Shown one piece after another: positions 27,146-41,869 of a stretch of 45,830 nt of DNA. The notes below the pieces were generated by a model. It saw only the letters and a list, made by a program, of their open reading frames with translations, did no database searches and had not been told where the DNA came from. Made by a program: the position numbers and the translations under genes. The DNA is taken from the NCBI GenBank assembly GCA_049297375.1, contig JBAQUF010000046.1, positions 1 to 45,830 of the forward strand. The letters run 5' to 3'. Within the stretch, counting starts at the first letter, position 1. Every line of letters begins with the position of its first letter. Source of the DNA: Patescibacteria group bacterium. Its GTDB lineage: Bacteria; Patescibacteriota; WWE3; UBA101185; UBA10185.

Positions 27146-29394
<2,249 letters not shown>

Positions 29395-29459
29395 AGATAT
29401 TAGACTAATACTAGACGAATAATAGACAAATGTCAATTAGTTTAAACTGGAAAAAATCC

Positions 29460-29530
29460 AAAAATGCGCTCCCGTGCATTAAGTCGAGCAGTCCTACCCT
29501 ACTACTCTCCTTTCACAGAAGCGCATTTTT
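29460..29530. repeat. 10 bp inverted repeat AAAAATGCGC / GCGCATTTTT with a 51 nt spacer at the left border of the G+C-rich island
   Basis: Read directly from the sequence. It lies between the Fic gene start and hairpin element A. Confidence 0.5.
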
Positions 29531-29540
29531 ATCCCCAAGT

Positions 29541-29600
29541 TTTTAAAAACTTACAGGATGTGAGTGTTGGCACTATTTCTAGTTTTCACTCACATCCCAA
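29541..29600 (-). terminator. hairpin/terminator element copy A (downstream of the 219 aa gene)
   Basis: Minus strand GGGATGTGAGTG-N20-CACTCACATCC has a perfect 11 bp stem (29556-29566 / 29587-29597). It is followed by TGTAAGTTTTTAAAA and is about 85% identical to copy C. Confidence 0.7.
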
Positions 29601-29621
29601 TATACTTAGACTTATACTACC

Positions 29622-30275
29622 CTAGTAAAGCCCACAATACCCAAGTTCCCTTACCCGAATGTGAATGGGCATTATGTGCTTCATATAACTTGCCACAGCA
29701 TCTTCTACATTCCGATACTTGTTGGCACCAGGGTTCCGTCTATGATAGGTGATGTTATCCCGAAGGTCTTCCTCGGTACTGCCTCCATTTAAAGAAGCCG
29801 CCCACAATACCATTCGTTCCCCTTTGGCAGCGGGTTCTTTGTCATAAGCAGCCTGGCCATCACCACCAGTAAACCGACGGTACAAACTTAGTGCCTCAGA
29901 GCTAGGCTGCCAGCTGTCAGGCATATAAAGGGTTCTGCCACATTTCGTAGCGGAAAACCACTCTCCCTCTTCTTTAAGAAGAATTTCATCCTGATCAGGA
30001 TGGCCTATCAAGGCAATGACCGTCCTACCCCCTACCTTAACAATGTTGTAGGGAACTGATGGATTCCTAAAGTCCAATCCTGTTTTGTAATGCAGGACTG
30101 GGCCACCTGGAATCTGAAAATAATGCCATCCGTTCCTGTTTACCGGACAGTCCTTAAGAAACTCTATTTGATCGAAATAGAGTTCCGGCCAACGACCTCT
30201 CATACAATCGTTGGATGCATCAGAGATAGCGCAGGTCAACGAATCAAAACTTGGAGCAGTTTTTGACTTTGCCAT
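29622..30275 (-). CDS. hypothetical protein (island gene 4)
   Basis: G+C-rich ORF. AAGGAGGT lies 7 nt upstream of the ATG at 30275 (MAKSKTAPS...). The track's ATG at 30281 sits too close to the SD. No recognised domain. Confidence 0.6.
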   Translation of the reverse strand: MAKSKTAPSFDSLTCAISDASNDCMRGRWPELYFDQIEFLKDCPVNRNGWHYFQIPGGPVLHYKTGLDFRNPSVPYNIVKVGGRTVIALIGHPDQDEILLKEEGEWFSATKCGRTLYMPDSWQPSSEALSLYRRFTGGDGQAAYDKEPAAKGERMVLWAASLNGGSTEEDLRDNITYHRRNPGANKYRNVEDAVASYMKHIMPIHIRVRELGYCGLY

Positions 30276-30534
30276 TTTCATACCTCCTTCAGGTTATGAC
30301 TTCCCGCAGGCTGGCGGGTTAAATTAAAGGATTTCGTGACAATTACATCACAATCTGTTACACAGAATCTAGCTATAATCGGCTAGAAAATCCCCTGCCC
30401 AGAGTTGGGCTCTTCTTTCTTCTATAACTCCTCGATCTATATTCTGATCAAGAAGTTATCTAAACCTATGTTAATTTCTTTCGTTTTTCTCCTTTCTATT
30501 TTTGGGTTTTCAGAACTTTTCAATTTTTGAAAAG

Positions 30535-30592
30535 CTCAAAAAACTCGGGAGGTATATTGGCATCTTTCCAGATATTCCAACTACCTCCCAAG
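30535..30592 (-). terminator. hairpin/terminator element copy B (downstream of the Csx3-like gene)
   Basis: Minus strand TAG-TCTCTTGGGAGGTAGTTGG...CCAATATACCTCCC-GAGTTTTTTGAG. It shares the TAGTCTCTTGGGAGGT junction with copy C. Confidence 0.7.
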
Positions 30593-30595
30593 AGA

Positions 30596-30907
30596 CTAAT
30601 CGATCAGATCCCCAGGTAAGTACAGATTACTATGGCAAACTGCCACAACGTATCTTCCTAACTTAGGATCAAACACAGCTACGGTCTCGTACAAGTGTAA
30701 CAGACCGTGGGCAATAGCAACGGCCACAGGCAGGGATGCCGGGCCGTTGATCTTGATGATAGAACCACCAGGCAGTTTGCCAGAGGCCTTCATCCCATCA
30801 ATTCGAACGGTAGCGTCCCGCACAATAACATTATTTTGTGCAGGTTCGTTGGAATTAAATCCAACTGTCAACACATCCCCCTGGATATCAATCAAAAACG
30901 AAGCCAT
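30596..30907 (-). CDS. csx3: Csx3-like protein (CRISPR-associated Csx3/Crn3 cA4 ring-nuclease family)
   Basis: 103 aa. INGPASLPVAVAIAHGLLHLYETVAVFDPKLGRYVVAVCHS parallels, from memory, the Csx3 core (...SGRGPIWLHCFLAHKYHH..FVAVYDPRLGAVVVQSHS of the A. fulgidus protein). Size fits the family. AAGGAG lies 5 nt upstream of the ATG. Confidence 0.72.
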   Translation of the reverse strand: MASFLIDIQGDVLTVGFNSNEPAQNNVIVRDATVRIDGMKASGKLPGGSIIKINGPASLPVAVAIAHGLLHLYETVAVFDPKLGRYVVAVCHSNLYLPGDLID

Positions 30908-30920
30908 TTTTCTCCTTTTT

Positions 30921-31529
30921 CTATTGTTCTTGTTTCTCCAAAGTAACTAGAGAAACAAGATGATTTGCAAGAGCTTTAACCATTGATCGACAGGAATTAT
31001 CCTCACCTCTTTCAAGATGATGAACACTTCCTCGAAGAATACCGTCTGGAGCAACTCCTTCGACTATATCTTCAGTGCCAAAGTAATCAGAAAACACTTC
31101 AGCAACGATCGTAAGCCCTAACTCTGCACAAAACTCACGCCATGGTTCCATTCGCTGGCCCCATGTTTCATCCTTCCAGTTTCCTGCCAGGATTACTGCG
31201 TGAGTGGCGTGCGACATAATCATCCGATTTTCATCGGAGGTTCGCCCGCCTACATCGATAATGGTGAGAGGGGTGGTGGCTTTTTCAACCCACTCAGCCC
31301 GAACTGCGGCAAACTCAGGAGTGAATTTGGACTTGTAGTCCGTTTTCAACTGCTGGGCAAGCTCTGGATCGTTCTGAGCGGCTTCACTAAACCACGCCCC
31401 TTCACCATCAGGACACGCCGTTATAACATACGGGTACGGCGCACCCTCAATCCGTTTGATTGCCTGCTTCAACCCCTCTCGCAGGCAGGACTTCCCTGAA
31501 TGGGGAGGTCCACAAAGAACAATTTTCAC
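30921..31529 (-). CDS. small P-loop NTPase (the ATPase module found fused to Csx3 in other genomes)
   Basis: 202 aa with a GTG start after GGAG. Walker A is LCGPPHSGKS and a Walker-B-like LTIIDVGG is present. The stop is 13 nt upstream of the Csx3-like start. Confidence 0.75.
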   Translation of the reverse strand: MKIVLCGPPHSGKSCLREGLKQAIKRIEGAPYPYVITACPDGEGAWFSEAAQNDPELAQQLKTDYKSKFTPEFAAVRAEWVEKATTPLTIIDVGGRTSDENRMIMSHATHAVILAGNWKDETWGQRMEPWREFCAELGLTIVAEVFSDYFGTEDIVEGVAPDGILRGSVHHLERGEDNSCRSMVKALANHLVSLVTLEKQEQ

Positions 31530-31650
31530 CTCTACTCCTATAGGATTAACTCAATTCTGCCTATTATAGATAACGACTTGAGCTTTGATTAGCCGCCTCT
31601 CAAAAAGAGGTAATAGCGCTTAAAACAGCACTAGTATCTTTCTTTGAGAA

Positions 31651-31707
31651 AAATAAAAACTTGCAGGAGGTGAGTTGGCACTATTTTAGTTTCCAATCAC
31701 CTCCCAA
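31651..31707 (-). terminator. hairpin/terminator element copy C (downstream of the 672 aa gene)
   Basis: Minus strand TAG-TCTCTTGGGAGGTGATTGG-N16-CCAACTCACCTCC-TGCAAGTTTTTATTTTT. The stem is 8+4 bp with one bulge. Confidence 0.7.
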
Positions 31708-31711
31708 GAGA

Positions 31712-33730
31712 CTAAACCCCAAATGAGCCAGACTCTATGCCCAGTTCCTCTTCAATACTTCTTACAGCATTGATTTGGTCTGGGGTGCATCCTTCAACAG
31801 GCATTTTAACAACCTCATATAGTCCGTTGAACATTCTTAAGGCGAGCTCTTTCTCGCTCACCTTCTCCCAATAGTAATGCCCGTCAGACTTATGTCTGGG
31901 AACATCATCACTATCTTTTTCACGAAGATGCCCATCGGGTTCAATTACCCACCCATCTCCTTGATTAGTTTTACCCCCTCGACGATGCCATACCTCGAAG
32001 TGAACCAAAAGTTCACCTCTATCTTGCTTTTCTTTCAGAACCTTTAAGTTGCTTTCGATGTCCTGAAATCTGGCAAGAGTCTTCTTAGCATCCCGAACCC
32101 AGCTCTCCAGGTTGGGCCATCCCTCTGTAGAGGGCATTATGTCAAGACCACTCTCTTGAGCGATCTCTTCAATTTTCCCCTTTGATATTTCATCAGCCAC
32201 AGAAAACCAAGGCTGGCTTACCAATTGGGAAACCTTGTTTTTTAAGACTTCTGCTTCCCCTCTCAGGGCGGTCCTTTGTTCCAGCTCACAACCCTCTAAG
32301 TGATAAGCTTGTTTTTCTTTTTCAAGCCTAACAAACAACCTCCCACGAGGTTCGACATTATGCTGATCCTGGCCATTCCAGCCAAGATTCAACACGAATG
32401 GATCGGTCGAAATAACTTCGCCAGTTTCCTCATCACTCAAGACAAGATTGCCTTTGCAATCTTGATAAGTACCAACTAAAGTGACAATTCTACCAATCCA
32501 TTCCTTCGGAACATGACCCCAAGGTGCGGTGCCTTTGGCCACATAGAATGCAGGATCGCGCTTGGCATCAGCCATCTTCCAAGTCACCCAAATTTCGGTC
32601 ATTAATTTACCATCTTTGACGAACAGGGCGTAAGGACGTATCTTGTATCCACCTTCTGGGCGGATGAACAAAACATCACCTTCATGAAGAATCACCATAA
32701 CTTCTGGCCAATCGTAGATCATGCCAGCAGCTCCCTCCGCACCTCGCCCTTCGGCGAAGATGATAGGATCACCTCGCCAAACTAAAACCTCGGGATTCGA
32801 CCCGCGGGTGTAAACCCAAGAGGTCGAGACCTTGACCAGGAATCCTGCTTCAGCCTTTGGTGCCTGAGCCAATCCGTACTTTCGCTTTATCGTTTCCTGC
32901 TCCCAGGAGTAACGAGCCGGGATGGTCTTTTCTTCCAAAACCACTACGGCAGCCTTGGTCAAACGGCCTTCAGCTTCAAAGCCCACAAGCGGCAGCTCCA
33001 ACAAACTGCGACCACGTCCACTTTGACCCAACGACACAACCATTCCGGTAGCGCCGTTTGTCAATGCGATACCTTCTTCCACGCGGCCACCTTGCCAGGT
33101 ATAAGCCAGAAGTTGGTTGGAGAGGAAGTTGAGGTTTGGGGCTGTGGTTGGAGAATTAGCCATTGCAGCTTCTGCTACTTTCAGCGCCTGAATGTTTTCA
33201 TAATCTTTCCAGGTTGCCGTCTGCAGACCAGTTGTGTCATACCAAAGTGCACGAGGTTCAAACTTACAACCACCAGAGAGGATAACCTTGATAACATCAC
33301 CAGGCTTCATGATAACAAGACCATCAGTCCAGCTACCAATCCGGCCAGCGTCGCCATAAGCGCCCCATCCTTCAATTATCTTCTCAGGTTTGCCAGCAAT
33401 CGTTTGCCAGCGACCTGAAGTGTTCCTGGTGTACGTGCCTTCGGTGTTGATGCGCACAATCACCCTCTCACTAACTTCGCTCGATCGGGTAAGAACCCAG
33501 AACTTGATTTCAGGTTTACCGTTGCGAGCGGGAATCGTGATCTGCTGCAACTCGGCATCCACGACACGACCATTAGCAGCAACTTCTGGGGGATTCCGAC
33601 GGGAAAAACCGACTTTCTCATAGCGGCGACCCCGACCAGCCTCACCCAAGAAAATCACCTTCCCCAGCTTCTCATCCTGAGTAAGTGGGAGACCACCAAC
33701 CAACGAACCAGAAAAATTGTATGTTTTCAT
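31712..33730 (-). CDS. large protein of unknown function with a tandemly duplicated ~160-residue N-terminal domain (island gene 1)
   Basis: 672 aa G+C-rich ORF with AGAGGA 5 nt upstream of the ATG. Residues ~25-178 and ~231-388 align: LG[EQ][AS]GRGR, TIPAR, EG.GA.G.AG.I..W....VI...GDV, GG.K..P.AL. Coiled-coil-like middle region. No known catalytic motif recognised. Confidence 0.75.
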   Translation of the reverse strand: MKTYNFSGSLVGGLPLTQDEKLGKVIFLGEAGRGRRYEKVGFSRRNPPEVAANGRVVDAELQQITIPARNGKPEIKFWVLTRSSEVSERVIVRINTEGTYTRNTSGRWQTIAGKPEKIIEGWGAYGDAGRIGSWTDGLVIMKPGDVIKVILSGGCKFEPRALWYDTTGLQTATWKDYENIQALKVAEAAMANSPTTAPNLNFLSNQLLAYTWQGGRVEEGIALTNGATGMVVSLGQSGRGRSLLELPLVGFEAEGRLTKAAVVVLEEKTIPARYSWEQETIKRKYGLAQAPKAEAGFLVKVSTSWVYTRGSNPEVLVWRGDPIIFAEGRGAEGAAGMIYDWPEVMVILHEGDVLFIRPEGGYKIRPYALFVKDGKLMTEIWVTWKMADAKRDPAFYVAKGTAPWGHVPKEWIGRIVTLVGTYQDCKGNLVLSDEETGEVISTDPFVLNLGWNGQDQHNVEPRGRLFVRLEKEKQAYHLEGCELEQRTALRGEAEVLKNKVSQLVSQPWFSVADEISKGKIEEIAQESGLDIMPSTEGWPNLESWVRDAKKTLARFQDIESNLKVLKEKQDRGELLVHFEVWHRRGGKTNQGDGWVIEPDGHLREKDSDDVPRHKSDGHYYWEKVSEKELALRMFNGLYEVVKMPVEGCTPDQINAVRSIEEELGIESGSFGV

Positions 33731-33783
33731 TTTTCCTCTTTTCCATTTTTCTCCAAGGGTTAAATTTTACCCAATGGTTGGCA

Positions 33784-33827
33784 CATACATACATAAGATA
33801 TAGGTGACATGCAAGAATGTATGTATG
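33784..33827. promoter_or_regulatory. 11 bp perfect inverted repeat upstream of the 672 aa gene (candidate operator)
   Basis: CATACATACAT (33784-33794) and ATGTATGTATG (33817-33827) with a 22 nt spacer, 54-97 nt upstream of the start at 33730. Confidence 0.4.
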
Positions 33828-33927
33828 CACACAATCATTTGGCAAAATACAAATGAAAATATTTAACTATTCTTGGGATATTTAATTGTAAAAGTACTCT
33901 CTTCTCTCTTACTTACTATCTGGTTTT

Positions 33928-33952
33928 GGTACTGTACTTTTTGTACAGTACC
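33928..33952. promoter_or_regulatory. perfect 10 bp palindrome GGTACTGTAC-TTTTT-GTACAGTACC
   Basis: Read directly. No flanking T-run on either strand, so a protein-binding site is more likely than a terminator. Confidence 0.35.
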
Positions 33953-34357
33953 TAATCAGAAAGCAAATGCTTAACGTACTTTCTCCTTTGTGTAACAGTC
34001 ATAAATCTACTTACTACAAAGGGTAGGTTTTGTAACAAACAAATTGATGTTTATTACCGTGTTTTTAAGTCTCTTTTATTTGAGCCACTCTGTACTCTAA
34101 AAGTACCAGATTCTCTAATTCATTCTTTTAGTCATTCCTAAATTTCTTTGTTAGGAGGATATACCTTCTAACAACCTCATTGGGTAGGAAATATTAGGCC
34201 GACATTTGCTTAAGATAATTTGTCTTAGGCAAGAATCTGTCTGAGATATCGGTAGGTCAGTTTGAGCTCTCTCCTTTATTAAATTAGGTAAAGTACCTAA
34301 AACTTTAAGAGTCTAAAAAGTGTTCCGTATATCTTGGGCAGATTTCTACCTAAGAAA

Positions 34358-34388
34358 CTAAAAAAGCTCGGTTTCTTTAACCCGAGCT
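34358..34388 (-). terminator. hairpin plus T-run inside the ORF-free gap
   Basis: AGCTCGG (34365-34371) pairs with CCGAGCT (34382-34388). On the minus strand it is followed by TTTTTAG. The plus-strand T-tract is weaker. Confidence 0.45.
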
Positions 34389-34502
34389 ATACTTTTAGCT
34401 TTAAACCTTGTTAACTAAGGTTCGGGTAGGAACAAGCTTTAATCATTATATTTTAAATGTCCTCTCTAACTTTCTAAATATATTGTATCTCATAGTTTAA
34501 TA

Positions 34503-34611
34503 TTTGTCAAGTAGTCATTAACATTGTCATTAAGTATTTAACAACCTATATTTCTTGATCGATAAATATATCATACTATAGGTACATATGTTTGTCAAGT
34601 AGTTATTGACA
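34503..34611 (+). promoter_or_regulatory. two copies of TTTGTCAAGTAGT[CT]ATT[AG]ACA, 88 bp apart, upstream of the TrmB-like gene (promoter/operator candidates)
   Basis: Copies at 34503-34523 and 34591-34611 are 19/21 identical. Copy 2 contains TTGACA, followed 14 nt later by TATAAT (34625-34630), which lies 10 nt from the ATG. Confidence 0.45.
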
Positions 34612-34640
34612 GATAATTTAAACTTATATAATCTGTACCT

Positions 34641-35405
34641 ATGTATAAGAATGTTCTTGAAGACTCAGGATTAAAATCCGGAGAAGCAGAAATTTATGAC
34701 TTACTACTCCAGTATGGAGACTCCCCTGCTTCAGAATTGACTTCTAAAACAAATCTTAAAAGAGGAATGATCTATAAATTTTTAGATGACTTAAAAAAGA
34801 AAGCTCTAGTATCTACATACTCCAAAAACAAGAAAACGTATTTTAGAGCTGAGCATCCCCACAAGTTAATGCAAAAAATAGAAGGAACATTACAAGACTT
34901 TCAATCTCAGAAAATAGCTCTTGAAGCGATACTTCCTGAACTTGCAGAAAAGTATAATCAAAAACAACTCAGACCAACGGTTGTTAGCTACGAAGGAATA
35001 CGTGGAATTAGAAAGGTATTCAAAGACATATATGCACCTAAAGATGAACCTGTGTATGGATGCGTAGATGTAGAATCTTCTGAAAAAGCTGTTTCTAATG
35101 AAGTAGTAAAAGACTTAATACCTTTAAGAATCAGAAACAACGTAAAGGCAATTAGCTTTATTGGCAAATCTAGACTAGGAGAGCAAATTCATGCTAAGGA
35201 TAAAGAATCTTTAAGAGAGAGTATCCTCTTAGATAAAAGGAGGTATCCAATACCTGCAGAAATTGATGTTTATGAAGATAAGGTAGCACTATTAAGCTTT
35301 GAAAAAGGAAACTTTTCTGGGATATTGATTCAAAACAAGGATATTGCCACATCCTTAAAAACAATATTTAAATTAGCTTTTAGAAAATCTGAGGTATGGG
35401 ATTAG
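34641..35405 (+). CDS. TrmB-family transcriptional regulator
   Basis: 254 aa. The N-terminal wHTH LEDSGLKSGEAEIYDLLLQYGDSPASELTSKTNLKRGMIYKFLDDLKKKALV is typical of TrmB. Confidence 0.85.
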   Translation: MYKNVLEDSGLKSGEAEIYDLLLQYGDSPASELTSKTNLKRGMIYKFLDDLKKKALVSTYSKNKKTYFRAEHPHKLMQKIEGTLQDFQSQKIALEAILPELAEKYNQKQLRPTVVSYEGIRGIRKVFKDIYAPKDEPVYGCVDVESSEKAVSNEVVKDLIPLRIRNNVKAISFIGKSRLGEQIHAKDKESLRESILLDKRRYPIPAEIDVYEDKVALLSFEKGNFSGILIQNKDIATSLKTIFKLAFRKSEVWD

Positions 35406-38112
35406 CTCGTCCTTCATACTGTGCCTTCACTACTACCCTTGGCTTACCGGAAGATGTCTGCCAAGGTTCAAACGATATCTTTCCAAACCCAGAGCTCATT
35501 AACATAGCTTTTAATTCCGCGAGAGGATATATGTGAAACTGCCCTTCTCTGCCACCTGGAAACATTACTTTTATATCCCCAAACTTTTCAGACCCCTCTT
35601 TAAATTGCTCTTTTACCTCTTCTAACCAACTACCTTCCTCACCTTCAAGAAGGGGGATATCTGTTCTAATAATTCCTCCTGGTTTCAATACTCGTGCAAT
35701 CTCTGAAAGATTAGACACTTGTTCGCTTCTACTTACCCAATCGTTAGGTGGAGACCAATTAAGTGTAACCACTGAGACTAAATCTTCTTGCAGGGGTATC
35801 GAGTCAATTGATCCTTGTATTACACTTAGATTTTCCTTTTCATTCTTTCCAGGGGACCAGATATCCATACCTATCAGCTTAGACTTTCCTTTCAACATAT
35901 CTGCCATAGGTTCTGTTATTCTTTTTCTGTCTCCACAAGCTAGATCAAGAACAACTCCGTTTATATCACTCATTTCCGAAAAGAAGTTTTTTAGTCCCTC
36001 TAATTCTCTTGAAGTATCGGCTGTTGTTTCGTTAGATGTACTAAACAGCTCTTCATTGCCATCATAAAATTCCTTTATCCTTTCAAGAGCTTTAAGGGTA
36101 GATTTATTATTCTTAGACTCCTTAACAATATCTTCTTCCCAAAAGTTTTCTATCATAGAAAGAAGTAAGGTCTGCATGTTTGACCCTTCCTCAGTAGAAT
36201 CAAAGGTTTTAAGCAACTGAAGGTATTTATTGTTTTCTAAGTCACTTTTTCTTAAAAACTCATTCTGATACCAGCTTTCAACATCTCTTCTGTACTTATA
36301 AAGTACGTTTGTTGCATCTTGTATACTAATTTCATTATTCTTTGTAACTTCGTGGGCTGCTAAAAATAACTTGCTACTATGCCTTAGAATCATATCGTTT
36401 ACTTGCCTAATTCTATCCAATTGAACATCTGAATACTGTGGATCATTACTTAAGAACCTCTCGACACTACCTACTATATCTGAAATAGCCGCCACATTTT
36501 CAAACAATAAACCTGTATTTGGTGATTTCCCTATCTCAATAACCTTAGAGATATCTTTTAAACTTCCTGAGATAGCTAAAAGAGTTTTGATCCTATTTGT
36601 CTTGTCTTCCTTAGTTAGAGTCTCCAAACCAATGTAGTTCTTAAATTTTATCTTGGATCTGTCTGAGAAAACATCCCACAAAGTAGATTGTTCTCTAACA
36701 GAAAAATTAACTATTCCCAATCCGAGATCTTCTAGAGATTCCGAAAACTCCAGAAACTTCTCCCATTCCTTTACCATACCCCCAGACTCGGGAAATTTAT
36801 TAACAAAATTATTAGCATCCCAAATACCATGTGCTTCTATATCCTTGGCCGACAACCTTGGATAAGGTTCCCCTTCGTGAGTAATTTTATCCTTTTCACC
36901 CTCACTAACTAGTTTAAAAACCTTAACAATTTCTGGGTGCTCTACCCTTCCATGTTTTTTAATCTTTACTACTCCTCCAAGATCATGGCTGATCTTTACA
37001 ACCTCACACCCCTTAGTATCCTCACCTTTGCCTAAGTAGTACCTTACACCATCAACCATGGTGTAACCATTTGCTCCTATTTCAGTATTTCTTCTATATA
37101 TCTCGTAGTAGCCATAAAGTCCACCATGTGCCCTAAAATCTTCAAGCTTAATGTTACCTTCCTTTAAAACATTTGGACATTCTCTTCTAAAAAATTCTTT
37201 TGGTGAGTGCCAAATCAAACTTCCAGAAAATAAGCTTCTAGATCCAGAATAACCATACATTTTAAATAAGTCACCATTTATTCTTGATCTTTTACCGTTA
37301 GGATATGTAACGTTTAATACCCCATTTTCATCTCTTACCCCATTTCCATAGCTTGGGTGAAAAACAATAGCAGATGAAACAACCTCTTGCGTTCTATAAA
37401 ACTTTCCATCTCTTGAGGGATAAATACGGTTGTTATAGTAGTCAGCGGCTTCCCACAACCCCATGTAAAAGTCCTCCTTTCTGATATTTTTGGGATCAAG
37501 CGGATCTGCCTTTGGAACATAAAACAAATCCTTAGGTTTAACATTTGGATCTTCTAAAGACCTTTCGTAGTCCTCTTTAGAAAAAACTAGCCCAAAGTTC
37601 ATAGACAAATCGGCGTAAACCTCCATTTGGTCTCTCCTAATAGGGTGACCCTTTTCTGATGCCTTTTCTAAGTCTATTGCAAACCTTCCAATATCACTAG
37701 CCATTTCATTCCATCCCATATTGCCATCTTTTTTCACTCTTGATACATCAAAAACAACAGTTCTTTTTTCAGATTTAGGAGTTTCAATAAGGTTTAGATA
37801 CCCATTGTCCTCAAGAACAATTATTGCCCTTCTTAGATCTTTACTCCATGTTCTTTTTTCTTCTTCATTGAAGGATTCTTCTGCGCGTTTATCCAAAACT
37901 TTTGAAGACTCTATTCCTTCAACCACAGAATCACCATGTAAACTACGTCCACTAGCAATTTTAACATTAGGAAATAACTCTTCGGCTAGACCCCCATCCC
38001 CACTAGAACTAGAAACAGACTCTTTTTTTGGATCTTCAACTGCAATAGAAGAAATCTCTTCTACAGTATCTCCTGGTTCAAGTATTTCAGCATACATTTC
38101 TTTTGTGGGCAT
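35380..38112 (-). CDS. large protein with a C-terminal class I SAM-dependent methyltransferase domain (N-terminal ~650 aa unknown)
   Basis: 910 aa. The C-terminus has motif I VVLDLACGD, then LIGMDIW and VLKPGGII, a Methyltransf_11-like order. The N-terminal two thirds are unrecognised. Confidence 0.7.
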   Translation of the reverse strand: MPTKEMYAEILEPGDTVEEISSIAVEDPKKESVSSSSGDGGLAEELFPNVKIASGRSLHGDSVVEGIESSKVLDKRAEESFNEEEKRTWSKDLRRAIIVLEDNGYLNLIETPKSEKRTVVFDVSRVKKDGNMGWNEMASDIGRFAIDLEKASEKGHPIRRDQMEVYADLSMNFGLVFSKEDYERSLEDPNVKPKDLFYVPKADPLDPKNIRKEDFYMGLWEAADYYNNRIYPSRDGKFYRTQEVVSSAIVFHPSYGNGVRDENGVLNVTYPNGKRSRINGDLFKMYGYSGSRSLFSGSLIWHSPKEFFRRECPNVLKEGNIKLEDFRAHGGLYGYYEIYRRNTEIGANGYTMVDGVRYYLGKGEDTKGCEVVKISHDLGGVVKIKKHGRVEHPEIVKVFKLVSEGEKDKITHEGEPYPRLSAKDIEAHGIWDANNFVNKFPESGGMVKEWEKFLEFSESLEDLGLGIVNFSVREQSTLWDVFSDRSKIKFKNYIGLETLTKEDKTNRIKTLLAISGSLKDISKVIEIGKSPNTGLLFENVAAISDIVGSVERFLSNDPQYSDVQLDRIRQVNDMILRHSSKLFLAAHEVTKNNEISIQDATNVLYKYRRDVESWYQNEFLRKSDLENNKYLQLLKTFDSTEEGSNMQTLLLSMIENFWEEDIVKESKNNKSTLKALERIKEFYDGNEELFSTSNETTADTSRELEGLKNFFSEMSDINGVVLDLACGDRKRITEPMADMLKGKSKLIGMDIWSPGKNEKENLSVIQGSIDSIPLQEDLVSVVTLNWSPPNDWVSRSEQVSNLSEIARVLKPGGIIRTDIPLLEGEEGSWLEEVKEQFKEGSEKFGDIKVMFPGGREGQFHIYPLAELKAMLMSSGFGKISFEPWQTSSGKPRVVVKAQYEGRANPIPQIF

Positions 38113-38161
38113 GGTTTTATTTTATATTAAAGACATTGAAATGAAAGAACAAAGTAACTAC

Positions 38162-38749
38162 TTACTTAATACTTTCCTTAAAAGCTTTATCAATAAAAGT
38201 CTTAATGGCACTCTCTAGTTTGTCAGAAGGAATATCAGATAGAGCAACTCCCCAATCATTAATTAATATTTTTAAATCTTTATATAAACTATCTGCAGCA
38301 TGATTTCTATTCTCTATTGTATTTCTACTATCTCTGGAATTTGCAAATAATCCTGTAATTTTATGCTTATACAAAACAGCATTGGCTACTTTGTTTACAT
38401 TCTGTCCCCCAGGACCGCTTGCTGAGAATTGACTGTAATCTAAATCTTTTGTTTCAACAAAAGGTTCTCCCAAATCCAACAATTTAATTAACCAAGAACA
38501 GTAGTCATCTATATTTTTATCATTTACTTCCTTGTTTATATCTTTTGGAAAATGTTCTAGGGATTTAATAATTTTATCTTCTGATTCTTTTATTCTTCTC
38601 TTTTGTGAATTGGATATTTCCTCGTTTCTGGCTGCCTTTAGTGTTTTACTCCCCACACCGCCACTTTTACCACTATTTGCATCTTTAACTAATCCATCCC
38701 CTAAACTGTTAGCTTCATCTACAGTTAAATCTTTAAAGATAATGGGCAT
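38162..38749 (-). CDS. stand-alone RF-1 (GGQ) domain protein, peptidyl-tRNA-hydrolase-like
   Basis: SASGPGGQNVNKVANAVLYKHKITGLFANSRDSRNTIENRNHA matches the class I release factor GGQ domain. There are no codon-recognition domains and no ArfB-type basic tail. ATG at 38749 is preferred over the track's TTG at 38776. Confidence 0.8.
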   Translation of the reverse strand: MPIIFKDLTVDEANSLGDGLVKDANSGKSGGVGSKTLKAARNEEISNSQKRRIKESEDKIIKSLEHFPKDINKEVNDKNIDDYCSWLIKLLDLGEPFVETKDLDYSQFSASGPGGQNVNKVANAVLYKHKITGLFANSRDSRNTIENRNHAADSLYKDLKILINDWGVALSDIPSDKLESAIKTFIDKAFKESIK

Positions 38750-38804
38750 ACAAAAATTATAACAACTAGTTACCAAATAGTCTTTATACTGTTAAAATAA
38801 TTAT

Positions 38805-39614
38805 ATGCCTCAAAGTGCTATACAAGGTGCCGTGGTTGAAATCATCCCAGATCATGAAGCTATTGGTAGTGTTCTTAATTTTGAGGAAATAGAAACAGAG
38901 AAAGGAGTTACCTCACAAATACAGGAATCGATAAAAAAACTTGAAGGAACCACTCTAAGGAGAGACTCTATAGGGCAAGCTTTTGGTCACAATCTTGTAG
39001 AACTATTGGTTTACGAGAATAAGAAGCTTAAGGAAGAACCGGAAAAACTTAGAGAAAAAACATCCATAATACTGCAAGTAGGAAGGGAGTACGCCAAGAT
39101 GCAAAGGGAAAATGTAAACAGTTTCCTAAATGGCTTTATGGCAGAAGCCTGCCTAGCACTATCACTAGATGAACTTGGGTACACAGTTTTGGCTCCAACT
39201 ATAGAAGAAGATATAAAGGGAAAAATTGACATGTTTGTAATTGATAAAAATTATACCCAAGAACCATATGCCCTAGCTATCCAAGTAAAAAACTCGTCAG
39301 AGGTAGAAGATATTATTGTTCATAACTTAAATGACGATATCAAAAACCTAAATATGCAACTAGAAACCCAATCAATAAGATATCTACCGGAATTTAAAAG
39401 TAAACTTGCTTATAGTAATAAATATATGTTAGAATATCTTTCCAAAAATAAGGAGAGATTCAACGGGAGGGTTATACCATTAGTTGTAATCATTCCAGGT
39501 GGGGACATGTCAGAGACTAGTTCCTACAACACTGTAACATCGGCACCTGTAAAGGGCTTCTCTTACAAATTATTTGATAAACTTAATGAAATATATGAAG
39601 GAGAAAAATTATGA
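38805..39614 (+). CDS. hypothetical protein, possible PD-(D/E)xK nuclease fold
   Basis: 269 aa. MAEACLAL...GKIDMFVIDKNYTQEPYALAIQVK gives an E...D...QxK spacing reminiscent of restriction-endonuclease-like folds. The evidence is weak. Confidence 0.5.
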   Translation: MPQSAIQGAVVEIIPDHEAIGSVLNFEEIETEKGVTSQIQESIKKLEGTTLRRDSIGQAFGHNLVELLVYENKKLKEEPEKLREKTSIILQVGREYAKMQRENVNSFLNGFMAEACLALSLDELGYTVLAPTIEEDIKGKIDMFVIDKNYTQEPYALAIQVKNSSEVEDIIVHNLNDDIKNLNMQLETQSIRYLPEFKSKLAYSNKYMLEYLSKNKERFNGRVIPLVVIIPGGDMSETSSYNTVTSAPVKGFSYKLFDKLNEIYEGEKL

Positions 39615-39838
39615 GTCAAACCGGGGTTAGGAATACAGTTGGAAGTGCTCCTGTGACAGGTATTACTTGCGAAGAGGTTATAAGATACCAAAAAATGCTT
39701 TTATCCAACGAGATAGTACCTGACAACATTCAATCTGCAGTAGCCACCCACACAGCAGTTTGTCCTGCATGTAGGAAGGCCTGGACAAAGGGTACAAAGA
39801 AAGAAGACGAAGCACTAAAAGATGCGAAACCAAACTAA
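39611..39838 (+). CDS. small zf-HC2 (anti-sigma-factor-type zinc finger) protein
   Basis: 75 aa. C-x25-H-x3-C-x2-C (ITCEE...THTAVCPAC) matches the ZAS/zf-HC2 pattern. The start overlaps the previous stop (ATGA). Confidence 0.5.
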   Translation: MSQTGVRNTVGSAPVTGITCEEVIRYQKMLLSNEIVPDNIQSAVATHTAVCPACRKAWTKGTKKEDEALKDAKPN

Positions 39839-39860
39839 TAGGGATCGCATCTTTTTATTT
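39821..39860 (+). terminator. intrinsic terminator after the 38805-39838 gene pair
   Basis: GATGCGA (39821-39827) pairs with TCGCATC (39845-39851), followed by TTTTTATTT. Confidence 0.55.
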
Positions 39861-39904
39861 CCGTTTTCTTTTAAAATTCAACGAAATAAACTATCATTAA
39901 TTTA

Positions 39905-41869
39905 ATGCCCAAGTCTTTTTTGCTAAGAAAACAATACTTCATCCTCTTCAAAACTCTGTCCATATATCTTCTTTTATTCCTTCTGTGTTCTTTCAAAGCA
40001 TTAGCAGGAACCACTTCTCCTGTTACTACAGCAGAAAAAGACCCTTCTACTCCAAATGGAAAACTTCTTTGGTACGTAACTCCTGTAGAAGTGACACTCA
40101 CATCTACTGATCTTGAAAGTGGTGTTAAAGAAATAAACTACAAAATAGATAGTGGAAATTGGGTTAAAAAAGACTTCACAGACACATTAAACTTAATTCC
40201 TAACCCATCATTTGAAATACCAGATGAAAATGCCCCTATATACACAAAGGACTGGACGATTGGATTACAAGACGAATACACAACTTATTTAAGAGACAGT
40301 TCAGTATATAAACCGGGCTTTGCAACGACTTCAATTCAAATATCATCCACAGGAGGATCTTGGCACTCAATTAATCACTTAGATAACTTTGCCGTTTCTT
40401 CTTCATACAACAACATGAATGCATATGCATGGATTAAAACGGAGAACGTTTCAGGATCTGTATATTTTAAAATATATGCAATATCTCAAGACCAAAATGG
40501 TCAGCAAACAATAAGTTTAGTATCCACAAGCTCTGCTTTGACAGGAACAAACGATTGGACTCAATTATCATTAAACTTTGTTGTGGGCGTAGATAATGCA
40601 GTAGGAGTATACATGGAGATAGGAATTGAGGGATCTGGAACAGTATGGATAGATGCAGCAAATATAAACAGTTCTTTAACTCCAACCACCACATTTACGG
40701 TAGCAACAGATGGGGAGCACACAATTCAATACTACGCAGTAGATAAGGCAGGAAATACAGAAAGCACAAAGAGTCTTAGCTTTAAAATAGATCAAACTCC
40801 ACCTGGAAACTGGAGGGATTCTGGGGCGATAAGAGCATTATTTGGTAGCGATCATGAGTTGTATGTTTGGACACATGTTGACGATACAACATCTGGACTA
40901 TCAACATTAACAGATAAGTTTCAGTACACAACTAGAATGTATGATGGCTTTGGAAGGTTCTCAACCCTATACAGCTGTAGTAGCACATGGAAACCAAACA
41001 CATGGGCAACGCTTGTAAGTCCTCCGTTCCTACCAGGAGTTCATTCAGCCTACATAATTACTCCCAAGGTAGATTTTTGTGATAGCAACTGGAAAATATG
41101 CCACTACACAAGGTTTTACGCAGAAGATTTAGCTGGAAATATCTCCACAAAGGATATGTGTATAAATGGTCCTTGGATAAAAGTTAGAGGTAAAGGAATA
41201 GTAAGATCCAACAATAATGTGGATATGATTTCAGAGGCTTACGAAGACAACACGGATGGCTTAATAGAAGCAGGAGGAACATCTATAAATTTCTTCAATT
41301 CATCCGTGGATTTGTATATGAACAATTCAGTTACCCCACCCCCAGATTATGATTACGATAAATTATTTGAAATGGCTCCAAATTCAAAAGATCAAATATC
41401 AACATCCGAGGATTTAATTTCATCTAATGGAGTTTATTTTATAAATGGAGATTATGAGATAACATCACAAAAATTACCTAACAATTACTCCAGTGCTGTC
41501 TTTAACCAAATACTATTTATAAATGGTAGCCTTAAAGTATCGGACACCCTACAGGTGGTAAATAGCTCAACTGCGCTATTTATAGTAAAAGGAGACGTAG
41601 AAATATCAAAAACCGTAACAACAGTCAAAGTAGGAATAATAGCTGATGGAACAATATATACTGCTTATAACATCAGTGAGGGGGAAGCATCATCTGCTCT
41701 TACAATGAACGGGATCTTCATTGCAAATAAAATAAACTTCCAAAGAACTCTCCAAGGTACACATAACGAAAAATACCCATCAGATGAAATAACGTATGAA
41801 CCAAAATATGCATTAAAACTAAGAGACTACATAGGGATAAACGATATTCAATGGCTTTCTACTGAATAA
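39905..41869 (+). CDS. secreted multidomain protein (signal peptide, two Ig-like/OmpL47-type modules, CBM-like domain)
   Basis: 654 aa with an N-terminal signal (LLLFLLCSFKALA-GT). Modules: LESGVKEINYKIDSGNW, GEHTIQYYAVDKAGNTES (Ig-like) and LIPNPSFE (CBM4_9-like start). Confidence 0.7.
   Translation: MPKSFLLRKQYFILFKTLSIYLLLFLLCSFKALAGTTSPVTTAEKDPSTPNGKLLWYVTPVEVTLTSTDLESGVKEINYKIDSGNWVKKDFTDTLNLIPNPSFEIPDENAPIYTKDWTIGLQDEYTTYLRDSSVYKPGFATTSIQISSTGGSWHSINHLDNFAVSSSYNNMNAYAWIKTENVSGSVYFKIYAISQDQNGQQTISLVSTSSALTGTNDWTQLSLNFVVGVDNAVGVYMEIGIEGSGTVWIDAANINSSLTPTTTFTVATDGEHTIQYYAVDKAGNTESTKSLSFKIDQTPPGNWRDSGAIRALFGSDHELYVWTHVDDTTSGLSTLTDKFQYTTRMYDGFGRFSTLYSCSSTWKPNTWATLVSPPFLPGVHSAYIITPKVDFCDSNWKICHYTRFYAEDLAGNISTKDMCINGPWIKVRGKGIVRSNNNVDMISEAYEDNTDGLIEAGGTSINFFNSSVDLYMNNSVTPPPDYDYDKLFEMAPNSKDQISTSEDLISSNGVYFINGDYEITSQKLPNNYSSAVFNQILFINGSLKVSDTLQVVNSSTALFIVKGDVEISKTVTTVKVGIIADGTIYTAYNISEGEASSALTMNGIFIANKINFQRTLQGTHNEKYPSDEITYEPKYALKLRDYIGINDIQWLSTE

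What the first reader, a model, noticed from the sequence alone, without database searches (positions are those of the whole stretch)
29541..33830. Abrupt G+C-rich four-gene island in an AT-rich genome: a self-contained, uncharacterised module
**Seen in the sequence**
- Between about 29.55 and 33.75 kb the base composition changes sharply. Hand counts give 37/60 G+C in 32701-32760 against 15/60 in 28021-28080.
- The island holds four minus-strand ORFs: 672 aa, a 202 aa P-loop NTPase, a 103 aa Csx3-like protein and a 219 aa protein.
- All four have strong Shine-Dalgarno sites (AGAGGA, GGAG, AAGGAG, AAGGAGGT).
- They form three transcription units, and each unit ends in a related hairpin/T-run element.
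- The left neighbour is the fic-tgt housekeeping pair. The right neighbour is a 0.9 kb ORF-free AT-rich stretch.
- No integrase, transposase, tRNA, cas gene or CRISPR repeat is present.

**Inference**
- This looks like a recent horizontal acquisition of a functional cassette from a higher-G+C donor.
- Two of the four proteins (672 aa and 219 aa) have no motif I can recognise.
- The other two link the cassette to cyclic-oligoadenylate biology. The cassette could be a cOA-linked defence or anti-defence system that has not been described.
Basis: partly seen in the sequence, partly recalled or inferred. Interest (0 to 1): 0.85.

Follow-up and report, generated by a model that had tools for sequence, protein, structure and literature searches.

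The report
GC-rich accessory-gene patch in a Patescibacterium
The G+C-rich stretch is real, horizontally acquired DNA in a tiny-genome (Patescibacteria) bacterium, but it is three unrelated gene units rather than one four-gene system: a known but uncharacterised CRISPR-accessory pair (ATPase + Csx3) found here without any CRISPR system, plus two proteins of unknown fold.

Summary
Positions 29.5-33.8 kb have 46% G+C against 35% elsewhere. The shift also holds at synonymous sites (GC3 0.42-0.48 against 0.18-0.39). The region holds four minus-strand genes in three units, and each unit ends in a related hairpin plus T-run. It is not a chimera, because independent assemblies from other sequencing runs cross both borders.

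The ATPase + Csx3 pair is a split form of the published Csx3-AAA / AAA-Csx3 type III CRISPR accessory family. Here it is an orphan, with no cas gene or cyclase found on the contig. The same pair occurs as a ~1.1 kb GC-rich islet at many unrelated sites in AT-rich genomes.

The 672 aa protein belongs to a mostly Patescibacteria family. Its model is confident (pLDDT 91) but has no fold match. It is a recombinant mosaic. Its GC3 exceeds the host background in 18 of 18 loci, often beside the same TrmB-like and C2 gene pair. The 219 aa protein is a very rare orphan.

The four genes occur together only in this organism. A single self-contained cOA defence cassette is therefore not supported. The recurrent GC excess and the TrmB-side location are new and unexplained.

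The parts
29455..29535 (-). Very stable hairpin flanked by an A-run and a T-run, exactly at the left compositional border between the island and the fic start codon. It probably insulates or terminates transcription in both directions.
   Evidence: RNA fold dG -37.3 kcal/mol, z = -9.1. Inverted repeat I9. The GC step lies at about 29.40-29.45 kb.
29541..29621 (-). Terminator hairpin + T-run after the 219 aa gene. It is copy 3 of the island-specific element.
   Evidence: dG -26.1, z -4.0. It shares AATAGTGCCAAC and repeat D8 with the element after the 672 aa gene.
29622..30281 (-). Gene for a 219 aa protein (more likely 217 aa from the second ATG) of unknown function. It is a very rare orphan family.
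   Evidence: Only 6 representatives among 1.84 billion clusters and 3 hits in the 5.8-billion set. The AF2 model has pLDDT 79.8 and no PDB fold match. No family hits.
30530..30595 (-). Terminator hairpin + T-run after Csx3. It is copy 2 of the island-specific element.
   Evidence: dG -27.1, z -4.5. A 25 nt direct repeat (D4, 92%) matches the element after the 672 aa gene. The 16-mer TAGTCTCTTGGGAGGT occurs only at these two places.
30596..30907 (-). Csx3/Crn3-like protein (103 aa), the second gene of a bicistronic operon with the ATPase.
   Evidence: PADLOC PDLC01045 3.4e-23 and PDLC01040 'Csx3 (CARF)' 6.1e-13. Pfam PF09620 scores 19.7 bits, just below GA 21. The subfamily profile hits only AfCsx3 in the PDB at E 0.002. 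H67, H71, D80, K82 and H92 are invariant.
30921..31529 (-). P-loop NTPase (202 aa, GTG start), the 'AAA' partner of Csx3. It lies 13 nt upstream of csx3.
   Evidence: PADLOC PDLC01045 6.6e-66, PDLC01515 2.4e-59 and C3a67 3.3e-33. The family has over 1,100 members at 58-80% identity. Conserved motifs are GPPxSGKSC, CPDGEG, DxGG and GSvHxLERGE. No PDB sequence relative.
31640..31711 (-). Terminator hairpin + T-run after the 672 aa gene. It is copy 1 of the island-specific element.
   Evidence: dG -22.2, z -3.6. Repeats D4 and D8.
31712..33730 (-). Gene for a 672 aa protein of a mostly Patescibacteria family. It has two tandem beta-rich domains (1-173 and 205-380), a beta domain, long helices (480-570) and a C-terminal beta domain.
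   Evidence: 61 homologs. The AF2 model has pLDDT 91.2 and pTM 0.71. No fold match in PDB or BFVD. The profile finds nothing in PDB sequences. The internal repeat is 33% identical, E 2e-17. It is a mosaic: residues 1-392 are 80-96% and residues 393-672 are 38-59% identical to the L004-type protein.
33731..34640 (.). ORF-free, AT-rich spacer between the island and the TrmB-like gene. It holds two near-consensus promoters that point toward the island and sit within a 24 nt direct repeat. A hairpin + T6 follows.
   Evidence: Promoters at 34598-34570 and 34510-34482 (11/12 matches, minus strand). Repeat D6. Hairpin at about 34392-34362. 67 nt are 82% identical to the equivalent spacer in L027. No Rfam match.
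34641..35405 (+). TrmB-like winged-helix regulator of native composition. It is a recurrent neighbour of GC-rich cargo in other Patescibacteria and is not part of the island.
   Evidence: Pfam TrmB 9.6e-10. GC3 0.25. Homologs lie near the 672 aa family or the ATPase in at least 14 distinct loci.
35380..38112 (-). 910 aa protein with a C-terminal SAM-methyltransferase domain and native composition. It is a weak homolog of the 'C2' proteins (~800-850 aa, C-terminal GNAT) that pair with TrmB elsewhere.
   Evidence: Pfam Methyltransf_11 3.2e-6. 24% identity and 70 bits to the L013 C2 protein. It does not reach E 1e-4 against the C2 profile. C2 proteins carry GNAT domains.

Best explanation
The stretch is a genuine patch of horizontally acquired accessory genes in a Patescibacteria chromosome. 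It is built from three independently terminated transcription units with separate evolutionary histories. It is not a single four-gene system.

**Unit 1: the 672 aa gene.** It belongs to a mostly Patescibacteria family of unknown and apparently unprecedented fold. It is itself a recombinant: the N-terminal double domain and the C-terminal half have different histories. In almost every genome that carries it, it appears as GC-rich cargo.

**Unit 2: the ATPase-csx3 operon.** It is a split version of the known Csx3-AAA / AAA-Csx3 type III CRISPR accessory family. Here it is an orphan, with no cas gene or cyclase found on the contig. The Csx3 part keeps the equivalents of H57, D69 and H80 of the cA4 ring nuclease Crn3. 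It also has a nearby second His and a Lys in place of R71.

- Inferred: it binds and probably cleaves cyclic tetra-adenylate or a related oligoadenylate.
- Inferred: the P-loop NTPase acts as the coupled effector or regulator.
- Shown: the same pair travels as a ~1.1 kb two-gene unit into many unrelated sites of AT-rich genomes.

**Unit 3: the 219 (217) aa gene.** It is a very rare orphan.

**Location.** The patch lies beside a native TrmB-like regulator and a large C2-type gene. Other Patescibacteria also carry GC-rich variable cargo at this position.

**What is shown.** Composition, gene structure, verified junctions, family memberships and lack of co-occurrence.

**What is inferred.** Ligand and activity of Csx3, coupling to the ATPase, the direction and timing of transfer, and any role in conflict with phages or hosts.
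For: **Composition and reality**
- GC and GC3 step.
- Junctions reproduced in independent runs.

**Unit structure**
- Three terminators, and a 13 nt ATPase-csx3 spacing.

**ATPase and Csx3 identity**
- PADLOC Csx3-AAA hits of 6.6e-66 and 3.4e-23.
- L019 carries a true AAA-Csx3 fusion with Pfam Cas_csx3 at 4e-19.
- The subfamily profile hits only AfCsx3 in the PDB.
- Conserved H, D and H residues against the residues defined in PMC7371418.
- The literature states that the fusion's ATPase is of unknown function (PMC6546367, PMC12409355).

**Orphan status**
- No cas gene or cyclase on the contig.
- Cas10 and csm genes appear only beside the ~305 aa fusions, in cyanobacteria-like loci.

**Independent mobility**
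- AAA-Csx3 alone forms GC islets in L071, L075, L078 and L103.
- The ATPase is 79% identical between the window and L027, while YchF is 64.5% and TrmB 23%.
- The 672 aa family sits inside a phage-like integrated element in L004. It is a single-gene islet in L117.
- In a 3.7 Mb, 60% GC genome (L116) it is compositionally native.

**No co-occurrence**
-.

**Mosaicism**
-.

**TrmB-side recurrence**
-.
Against: - The three units share one island-specific terminator family and one strand. They therefore have a common local history, and a functional link cannot be excluded.
- AAA-Csx3 and a 672-family gene lie within about 1.5 kb of each other in three separate lineages (window, L027-type, L019). 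That is more than nothing, although the shared TrmB-side location could explain it.
- No integrase, att repeat or tRNA marks the island in the window, so the mode of entry is unknown.
- The 672 family's GC3 tracks host GC3 with slope 0.81. Simple recent import from one donor pool does not predict that.
- Csx3 positions G45 and R46 (cA4 contacts) are not conserved, and the second His is one residue out of register with H60. Ring-nuclease activity is therefore unproven.
- Only 45.8 kb of the genome was seen. A cyclase could be encoded elsewhere.
Confidence: 0.7

Rival explanations
1. The four genes form one self-contained, undescribed cOA-linked defence or anti-defence cassette, acquired in one recent event from a higher-GC donor.
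For: - Same strand, similar GC (0.465-0.488) and similar GC3.
- All three units end in the same island-specific terminator element.
- Csx3 links the region to cOA biology.
- A 672-family gene lies close to AAA-Csx3 in the L027-type and L019 loci too.
Against: - The set of four is found only in this organism (window plus L026, L113 and L114).
- 672-family loci mostly lack the ATPase, and ATPase loci mostly lack the 672 family: 3 of about 20 and 3 of 48 lineages.
- The 219 aa family occurs alone elsewhere.
- Each unit has its own terminator.
- AAA-Csx3 is a published family.
- No signal generator (Cas10 or CD-NTase) is present on the contig.
Confidence: 0.1
2. The GC excess does not reflect recent transfer. 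These genes are long-term residents of a conserved, TrmB-controlled locus. A local force keeps their G+C high: selection on mRNA or codons, or GC-biased gene conversion at a recombination hot spot.
For: - The 672 family's GC3 exceeds the background in 18 of 18 loci (mean +0.20). It scales with host GC3 (slope 0.81, r 0.71).
- Intergenic DNA inside the island is also GC-elevated.
- The gene is a recombinant mosaic.
- Synteny C2 - TrmB - gap - GC patch - ... - YchF recurs in distant lineages.
Against: - The flanking TrmB and C2 genes would be the recombination arms, yet they are not elevated (-0.06 and -0.08).
- Highly expressed genes such as S2 and EF-Ts in L001 are not GC3-rich.
- Cargo differs almost completely between lineages; it is mostly singletons.
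- The same families also occur away from TrmB and inside a phage-like element.
- The ATPase is more conserved between genomes than YchF, which indicates transfer.
- Partial amelioration of imports from a very GC-rich pool also gives a positive slope.
Confidence: 0.15
3. Assembly chimera or contaminant fragment joined into an AT-rich contig.
For: An abrupt composition change with no mobility genes. One Logan contig (L026) covers only the island interior.
Against: L113 (run ERR1558698) crosses the left border into fic at 99.9% identity. L114 (run SRR28062683) crosses the right border through TrmB and beyond at 100%. The same layout (TrmB - gap - GC-rich AAA-Csx3 or 672 family) recurs in many unrelated assemblies.
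Confidence: 0.01
4. An integron-like cassette array without an integrase (CALIN). In this reading, each gene unit is a cassette ending in an attC-type hairpin.
For: The units share one orientation and each is followed by a related, genome-specific hairpin. The L027 pair is bracketed by perfect direct repeats of its own hairpin.
Against: - The hairpins are followed by T-runs and fold as ordinary intrinsic terminators.
- No RYYYAAC / GTTRRRY core sites are visible in the sequences.
- No integron integrase is present.
- No structured-RNA or DNA family matches.
- The elements downstream of Csx3 are unrelated between lineages.
Confidence: 0.03

Closest known systems
Csx3-AAA (Shah et al. 2019, cluster 35; e.g. 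Synechocystis Slr7080) and AAA-Csx3 (cluster 67, C3a67), accessory proteins of type III CRISPR-Cas
   Same: The same two domains are present. The ATPase matches PADLOC Csx3-AAA positions 109-285 of 286 at 6.6e-66, and the small protein matches positions 1-99 at 3.4e-23. The ATPase is 58-66% identical to ~305 aa cyanobacterial fusions. The ATPase-then-Csx3 order matches cluster 67 and the L019 fusion.
   Different: The domains are two separate genes rather than one polypeptide. No type III cas genes, Cas10 or CRISPR array lie nearby or anywhere on the contig. The host is a Patescibacterium. The pair is strongly GC-elevated relative to its host and is scattered at unrelated loci.
Crn3/Csx3 ring nuclease (Archaeoglobus fulgidus AF_1864; PDB 3WZI, 6YUD)
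   Same: It is the only PDB family hit by the subfamily profile (E 0.002). The equivalents of H57 (H67), D69 (D80) and H80 (H92) are invariant. The DPxLG motif and the C-terminal GDxID are shared.
   Different: R71 is replaced by an invariant Lys. The second His is at +4 rather than +3 from H57. The cA4-contact residues G45 and R46 are not conserved. Pfam and TIGRFAM scores fall below the curated cut-offs. The protein always travels with a P-loop NTPase.
Classical genomic islands and defence islands acquired by horizontal transfer
   Same: An abrupt compositional change, accessory genes of sporadic distribution, a location that also varies in relatives, and cargo related to defence signalling.
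   Different: - The island is GC-richer than the host, whereas islands are usually AT-richer.
- There is no integrase, tRNA or flanking repeats in the window.
- The GC excess of the 672 family is systematic across 18 of 18 hosts and scales with host GC.
Viral and MGE ring nucleases used as anti-CRISPRs (AcrIII-1 / Crn2 family)
   Same: A possible functional analogy: a ring-nuclease-type gene carried as mobile cargo without a cognate type III system.
   Different: The fold and family differ (DUF1874 against Csx3). No experimental or contextual evidence here shows that the pair sits on a phage or plasmid. There are no PHROG matches. This comparison is analogy only.

Membership tests
Csx3/Crn3 (Pfam PF09620, TIGR02579) | Sequence match to the curated family models at their cut-offs | tested here: inconclusive
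   PF09620 scores 19.7 bits against GA 21. TIGR02579 scores 19.8 against 55.4. PADLOC Csx3 models are met clearly (3.4e-23 and 6.1e-13). The subfamily profile hits only AfCsx3 in the PDB at E 0.002. hhalign to a bona fide Csx3 domain (L019) gives probability 72% and E 3e-5.
Csx3/Crn3 (Pfam PF09620, TIGR02579) | Conserved catalytic and ligand residues H57, H60, D69, R71 and H80 (PMC7371418) | tested here: inconclusive
   The H57, D69 and H80 equivalents (H67, D80, H92) are invariant. R71 is replaced by an invariant K82. The second His (H71) aligns with H61, not H60. G45 and R46 are not conserved.
Csx3/Crn3 (Pfam PF09620, TIGR02579) | Mn-dependent cleavage of cA4 | not testable with these tools
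   Needs purified protein and cA4.
Csx3-AAA / AAA-Csx3 type III accessory proteins (Shah et al. clusters 35 and 67) | A Csx3 domain and this particular P-loop NTPase domain together | tested here: met
   Both domains are present as adjacent, 13 nt-spaced genes. PADLOC PDLC01045 covers both. Csx3 is adjacent in 26 of 48 ATPase lineages, and fusions add to that.
Csx3-AAA / AAA-Csx3 type III accessory proteins (Shah et al. clusters 35 and 67) | Both domains fused in one polypeptide | tested here: not met
   Two ORFs are separated by a stop codon and a Shine-Dalgarno site. Stand-alone ~200 aa ATPases are in fact the majority form in the database.
Csx3-AAA / AAA-Csx3 type III accessory proteins (Shah et al. 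clusters 35 and 67) | Encoded next to a type III CRISPR-Cas module | tested here: not met
   No cas genes on the 45.8 kb contig. Cas10 and csm neighbours were seen only for the fusions in cyanobacteria-like loci.
Complete cOA signalling system (generator + sensor/effector) | Presence of a cyclase (Cas10 Palm/GGDD or CD-NTase) | tested here: not met
   None appears among the families listed for the contig's proteins. Those calls list only the 25 most frequent families. The rest of the genome was not available.
Horizontally acquired genomic island | Compositional deviation, including synonymous sites, with sharp borders | tested here: met
   GC3 is 0.42-0.48 against 0.18-0.39. The borders are sharp within about 100 nt.
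Horizontally acquired genomic island | Mobility signatures (integrase, tRNA target, flanking direct repeats) | tested here: not met
   None in the window. Related islands do abut tRNAs (L027, L001) or lie in a serine-recombinase element at tRNA-Ala (L004).
Horizontally acquired genomic island | Patchy distribution and higher similarity than housekeeping genes between genomes | tested here: met
   The ATPase is 79% identical between the window and L027, against 64.5% for YchF and 23% for TrmB. The 5' 1.24 kb of the 672 aa gene is 85% identical in DNA to the L004-type gene.
Integron cassette array / CALIN | attC sites with R''/R' core sites (RYYYAAC ... GTTRRRY) and an integron integrase | tested here: not met
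   No core sites are visible in the three elements. The hairpins carry T-runs typical of terminators. No integrase was found. A dedicated attC model was not available.

The most novel reading that the evidence does not exclude
Patescibacteria share a chromosomal landing zone next to a native TrmB-like regulator and C2 gene pair. Systematically GC-rich cargo accumulates in this zone. Its two recurrent passengers are a new-fold, recombining protein family (the 672 aa family) and an orphan ATPase-Csx3 pair that works outside CRISPR-Cas. One possible role for the pair is degrading or sensing cyclic oligoadenylates made by the epibiont's bacterial host or by competing mobile elements. If so, this would be a previously unrecognised conflict or host-interaction toolkit of ultra-small bacteria. 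The constant GC excess would reflect a special source or a special maintenance mechanism.
Probability: 0.2. Interest if true: 0.75.

Novelty: new variant of a known kind. Interest (0 to 1): 0.5.

Why it matters
Csx3-AAA is a recognised but functionally blank CRISPR accessory family. The 2025 literature still calls its ATPase 'of unknown function'. This work shows that a split, CRISPR-less form is widespread as a tiny GC-rich two-gene islet in AT-rich, Patescibacteria-type genomes. That argues the pair has a role independent of type III CRISPR and gives a clean minimal unit to test.

The 672 aa family is a confidently folded protein with no structural relative. It is a frequent and always GC-elevated passenger in these reduced genomes. 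Most genes in such genomes are under strong pressure to be useful, so this family is a good candidate for new biology.

The finding also corrects the idea of a four-gene system, which would otherwise mislead an experimental design.

Tried and rejected
1. **Chimera.** Rejected by junction-spanning contigs from other runs.
2. **Four-gene co-occurrence.** Searched from three sides and not found: 672 aa family loci in genomes, ATPase loci in metagenomes and 219 aa family contexts.
3. **Phage origin.** No relative of the 672 aa family in IMG/VR. No PHROG hit for any of the four proteins. No BFVD fold match.
4. **Fold assignment.** The 672 and 219 aa models give no Foldseek hit at E <= 0.001 in the PDB. 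Profile against PDB sequences finds nothing.
5. **A universal 'cassette-end' element downstream of Csx3.** The hairpins are lineage-specific and are ordinary terminators. The integron attC idea was dropped.
6. **Att-type flanking repeats of the island.** Only weak 14-33 nt matches.
7. **Known RNA in the island or the 0.9 kb spacer.** None.
8. **Translational selection as the cause of high GC3.** Ribosomal and translation-factor genes in L001 are not GC3-rich.
9. **GTPase NKxD motif in the ATPase.** The NWKD in the window protein is not conserved in the family.
10. **Literature on GC-atypical islands or Csx3 in CPR or Patescibacteria.** Nothing found.

Full report
**What the window is.** The 45,830 nt window is a complete contig of a Patescibacteria (CPR) metagenome-assembled genome. 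The 672 aa and 219 aa proteins are deposited as WAX66_02290 and WAX66_02275, 'Patescibacteria group bacterium'. The rest of the contig is ordinary reduced-genome housekeeping: Cys- and His-tRNA synthetases, RF-1, SSB, RecR, DNA pol III delta', L31, S6, YchF and TGT. It also carries a type I restriction-modification system and a Prim-Pol protein.

**Checking the observation.**
- The two hand counts are exact (37/60 and 15/60). The island is 46.4% G+C and the rest of the contig is 34.6%.
- The difference is not an amino-acid effect only. GC3 of the four genes is 0.42-0.48, while no other ORF of at least 100 aa exceeds 0.39. Intergenic DNA within the island is 0.38 against 0.31 in the neighbouring spacer.
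- The borders are sharp, near 29.40-29.45 kb and 33.65-33.70 kb.
- The four minus-strand ORFs and the four Shine-Dalgarno sites are confirmed.
- The three hairpin + T-run elements fold stably, with z of -3.6 to -4.5. They are related in sequence (repeats D4 and D8). They occur only inside the island.
- For the last gene the SD abuts the first ATG. The second ATG (217 aa, as in NCBI) is the more likely start.
- A fourth, very stable hairpin (29455-29535, dG -37 kcal/mol, z -9.1) sits exactly on the left border.
- There is no tRNA, Rfam family, integrase or cas gene.

**Not a chimera.** Three contigs assembled independently from other sequencing runs match the window.
- L026 covers 29936-33800, the island interior.
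- L113 (ERR1558698) covers 29229-30836 at 99.9% identity. It crosses the left border into fic.
- L114 (SRR28062683) covers 31978-41405 at 100% identity. It crosses the right border through the spacer, TrmB and four further genes.

**The ATPase + Csx3 pair is a known family in an unusual setting.**
- The 202 aa protein matches PADLOC's Csx3-AAA model over its ATPase part (6.6e-66). The 103 aa protein matches the Csx3 part of the same model (3.4e-23). Both also match other Csx3 models.
- Pfam and TIGRFAM Csx3 models score just below or well below their cut-offs.
- A profile of the stand-alone subfamily hits only A. fulgidus Csx3/Crn3 in the PDB, at E 0.002.
- A Doudnabacteria relative (L019) carries a true ATPase-Csx3 fusion with a strong Pfam hit of 4e-19.
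- Against the residues shown to matter in Crn3 (H57, H60, D69, R71, H80; PMC7371418), the subfamily keeps invariant H67, D80 and H92. It has an invariant Lys for R71. A second invariant His lies one position out of register with H60. The cA4-contact residues G45 and R46 are not kept.
- The ATPase family has over 1,100 members at 58-80% identity. Its conserved motifs are GPPxSGKSC, CPDGEG, DxGG and GSvHxLERGE, and it has no solved relative.
- The literature describes Csx3-AAA (cluster 35) and AAA-Csx3 (cluster 67) as type III accessory proteins with an ATPase 'of unknown function' (PMC6546367, PMC8136920, PMC9676260, PMC12409355).
- In my sample, Cas10 and csm genes flank only the ~305 aa fusions in cyanobacteria-like loci.
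- In AT-rich, CPR-type genomes the split pair has no cas neighbours. It often forms a ~1.1 kb islet of 50-60% G+C set directly into 33-38% G+C DNA at unrelated sites: L071, L075, L078 and L103.
- The ATPase is 79% identical between the window and L027, whereas YchF is 64.5% and the TrmB-like protein 23%. That pattern indicates transfer between lineages.

**The 672 aa protein.**
- It has 61 homologs. Those with names come from Collier-, Falkow- and Uhrbacteria, Paceibacterota, Saccharibacteria and others.
- The AlphaFold model built on 46 sequences is confident (pLDDT 91.2, pTM 0.71). It shows two tandem beta-rich domains (1-173 and 205-380, 33% identical to each other, E 2e-17). These are followed by a small beta domain, long helices (480-570) and a C-terminal beta domain.
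- Foldseek finds nothing at E <= 0.001 in the PDB or BFVD. The family profile finds nothing in PDB sequences, Pfam, NCBIfam, PADLOC or PHROGs.
- Invariant residues are mostly glycines with a few Arg and Asp (GRGRR and GDAGRIG motifs). There is no obvious catalytic constellation.
- Stand-alone versions of domain 1 exist (L018-L022). One copy is fragmented (L017).
- The gene is a recombinant. Residues 1-392 are 80-96% identical to the L004-type protein (85% at the DNA level over 1.24 kb). Residues 393-672 are only 38-59% identical.

**The 219 aa protein.** It has six representatives among 1.84 billion clusters. The model has moderate confidence (pLDDT 79.8): a seven-strand sheet plus helices, with no fold match. 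Its two close relatives sit in other genomes without any of the other three genes, again in GC-rich patches.

**The four genes are not a conserved set.**
- From the 672 aa side (22 loci), the ATPase is nearby only in the window, the L027-type loci and L019. The 219 aa family is never nearby.
- From the ATPase side (80 loci, 48 dereplicated lineages), Csx3 is adjacent in 26, and fusions add to that. The 672 aa family is adjacent in three, and the 219 aa family only in the window.
- What argues for some shared history is the island-specific terminator that ends all three units. In L027 the ATPase-Csx3 pair is likewise bracketed by perfect direct repeats of that genome's own terminator hairpin.
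- These elements differ between lineages and behave as ordinary intrinsic terminators. I found no attC-type core sites.

**The unexpected part: a recurrent, GC-rich cargo zone.**
- The TrmB-like gene just outside the island has native composition. So does the large gene convergent with it: 910 aa with a C-terminal methyltransferase here, and ~800-850 aa 'C2' proteins with a C-terminal GNAT elsewhere.
- This pair recurs beside the 672 aa family or the ATPase in at least 14 distinct loci. The orientation is the same (divergent) and an ORF-poor spacer of about 0.5-2 kb lies between them.
- In L027 and L012 even YchF lies downstream, as in the window.
- In 12 of 16 TrmB-bearing loci a GC-rich patch of at least 1 kb starts 0.07-3.2 kb from the TrmB 5' end. 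The caveat is that all these loci were retrieved through the cargo genes.
- Cargo other than the 672 family and ATPase-Csx3 consists almost entirely of lineage-specific singletons. A few have nucleotide-related domains (AAA_28, NDK).
- The GC3 of the 672 family gene exceeds the local background in 18 of 18 loci. The mean excess is +0.20 and Wilcoxon p is 8e-6. It scales with host GC3 (slope 0.81).
- The ATPase exceeds background in 13 of 15 loci (+0.15). TrmB and C2 do not (-0.06 and -0.08).
- In L004 the 672-family gene is the GC-richest part (0.55) of a phage-like integrated element (0.40) in a 0.30 host. That element carries a serine recombinase at tRNA-Ala, a primase, and small-terminase-like and SSB-like genes.
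- In a 3.7 Mb, 60% G+C genome a distant family member is compositionally native.
- The simplest reading is repeated import from GC-richer sources followed by partial amelioration. A local GC-raising force is not excluded.

**How it most likely works.**
- Shown: there are three transcription units. Unit 2 is a bicistronic ATPase-csx3 operon.
- Inferred from family knowledge: Csx3 forms dimers that sandwich cA4 and, with Mn2+, cleave it. The retained His, Asp and His residues make binding, and probably cleavage, of cA4 or a related oligoadenylate plausible. The tightly linked P-loop NTPase is the partner whose activity is coupled to ligand binding, as Shah et al. proposed for the fusions.
- No cyclase is on the contig. 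The signal source is therefore unknown: an unlinked system, a mobile element or, speculatively, the epibiont's host.
- No mechanism can be assigned to the 672 aa and 219 aa proteins. Repeated beta domains, glycine- and arginine-rich conserved motifs and modular recombination suggest a binding or scaffold protein in a conflict or host-interaction role rather than an enzyme. This is the weakest part of the account.

**Verdict.** The 'undescribed four-gene cOA system' is not supported. The cOA-related pair is a known family in a new, CRISPR-less, split and mobile form. The 672 aa family and the systematic GC excess beside TrmB in Patescibacteria are the parts that look new and worth following.

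Noticed in passing
window 34362-34611 (minus strand), inside the 0.9 kb 'ORF-free' spacer: Two near-consensus sigma-70-type promoters (TTGACA-17-TATGAT at 34598-34570 and TTGACA-17-TACAAT at 34510-34482) sit within a 24 nt direct repeat (34500-34523 and 34588-34611). Both point toward the island. A hairpin + T6 follows at about 34392-34362. This could be a short (~90-200 nt) transcript, or TrmB operator and promoter repeats. 67 nt of it are 82% identical to the equivalent spacer in L027. There is no Rfam match, and the fold z-score is only -1.9.
   Followed up: partly
window 29455-29535: An unusually stable hairpin (18 bp outer stem, dG -37.3 kcal/mol, z -9.1) is flanked by an A-run and a T-run. 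It lies exactly at the left compositional border, upstream of fic.
   Followed up: partly
window 35380-38112 and C2 genes in L012, L018, L013, L019, L020: The large protein convergent with the TrmB-like gene (they overlap by 26 nt here) has a long N-terminal region of unknown function. Its C-terminal small-molecule transferase domain differs between lineages: a SAM methyltransferase in the window and a GNAT acetyltransferase in L012 and L018. The TrmB + C2 pair is a conserved Patescibacteria gene pair of unknown role.
   Followed up: partly
L004 2800-16700: A phage- or satellite-like integrated element (GC 0.40 in a 0.30 host). It has a large serine recombinase abutting tRNA-Ala, a DnaG-type primase, a small-terminase-like protein and an SSB-like protein. 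It carries the closest homolog of the 672 aa gene as even GC-richer cargo (0.55), together with a 312 aa unknown protein at 0.60 GC.
   Followed up: partly
L036, L047, L070, L086, L088, L110 (about 1-6 kb downstream of the ATPase gene): A second recurrent GC-rich gene set accompanies the ATPase where Csx3 is not called: a ~105 aa protein, a ~119 aa protein, a MoxR-like AAA ATPase (~400 aa) and a ~555-590 aa protein. L070 and L102 carry two paralogs of the Csx3-type ATPase in one island.
   Followed up: no
L001 9926-15321 and L027 6608-6835: tRNA genes sit inside or at the edge of related GC-rich patches. tRNA-Thr and tRNA-Tyr lie between the 219-family gene and further GC-rich unknown genes in L001. 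tRNA-Glu, tRNA-Gly and tRNA-Trp lie between the TrmB spacer and the ATPase-Csx3 patch in L027. The window has none.
   Followed up: partly
L017 10636-12413: The 672-family gene is broken into three consecutive ORFs (157, 159 and 169 aa) that match successive parts of the family profile. This is an apparent pseudogene that is still GC-rich (0.57 against 0.43).
   Followed up: no
window 387-2456 and about 9.3-14.3 kb: A 689 aa Prim-Pol / PriCT-1 protein lies at the contig's left end. A complete type I restriction-modification system (methylase, specificity and restriction subunits) is also present. Both are of native composition. An ADP-ribosylglycohydrolase is also encoded on the contig.
   Followed up: no
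window 28327-28330: The fic ORF (TTG start as listed, 369 aa) and the tgt ORF overlap by 4 nt, which suggests translational coupling of an unusual Fic-TGT pair. A Fic homolog also lies near the ATPase-Csx3 fusion in L019.
   Followed up: no
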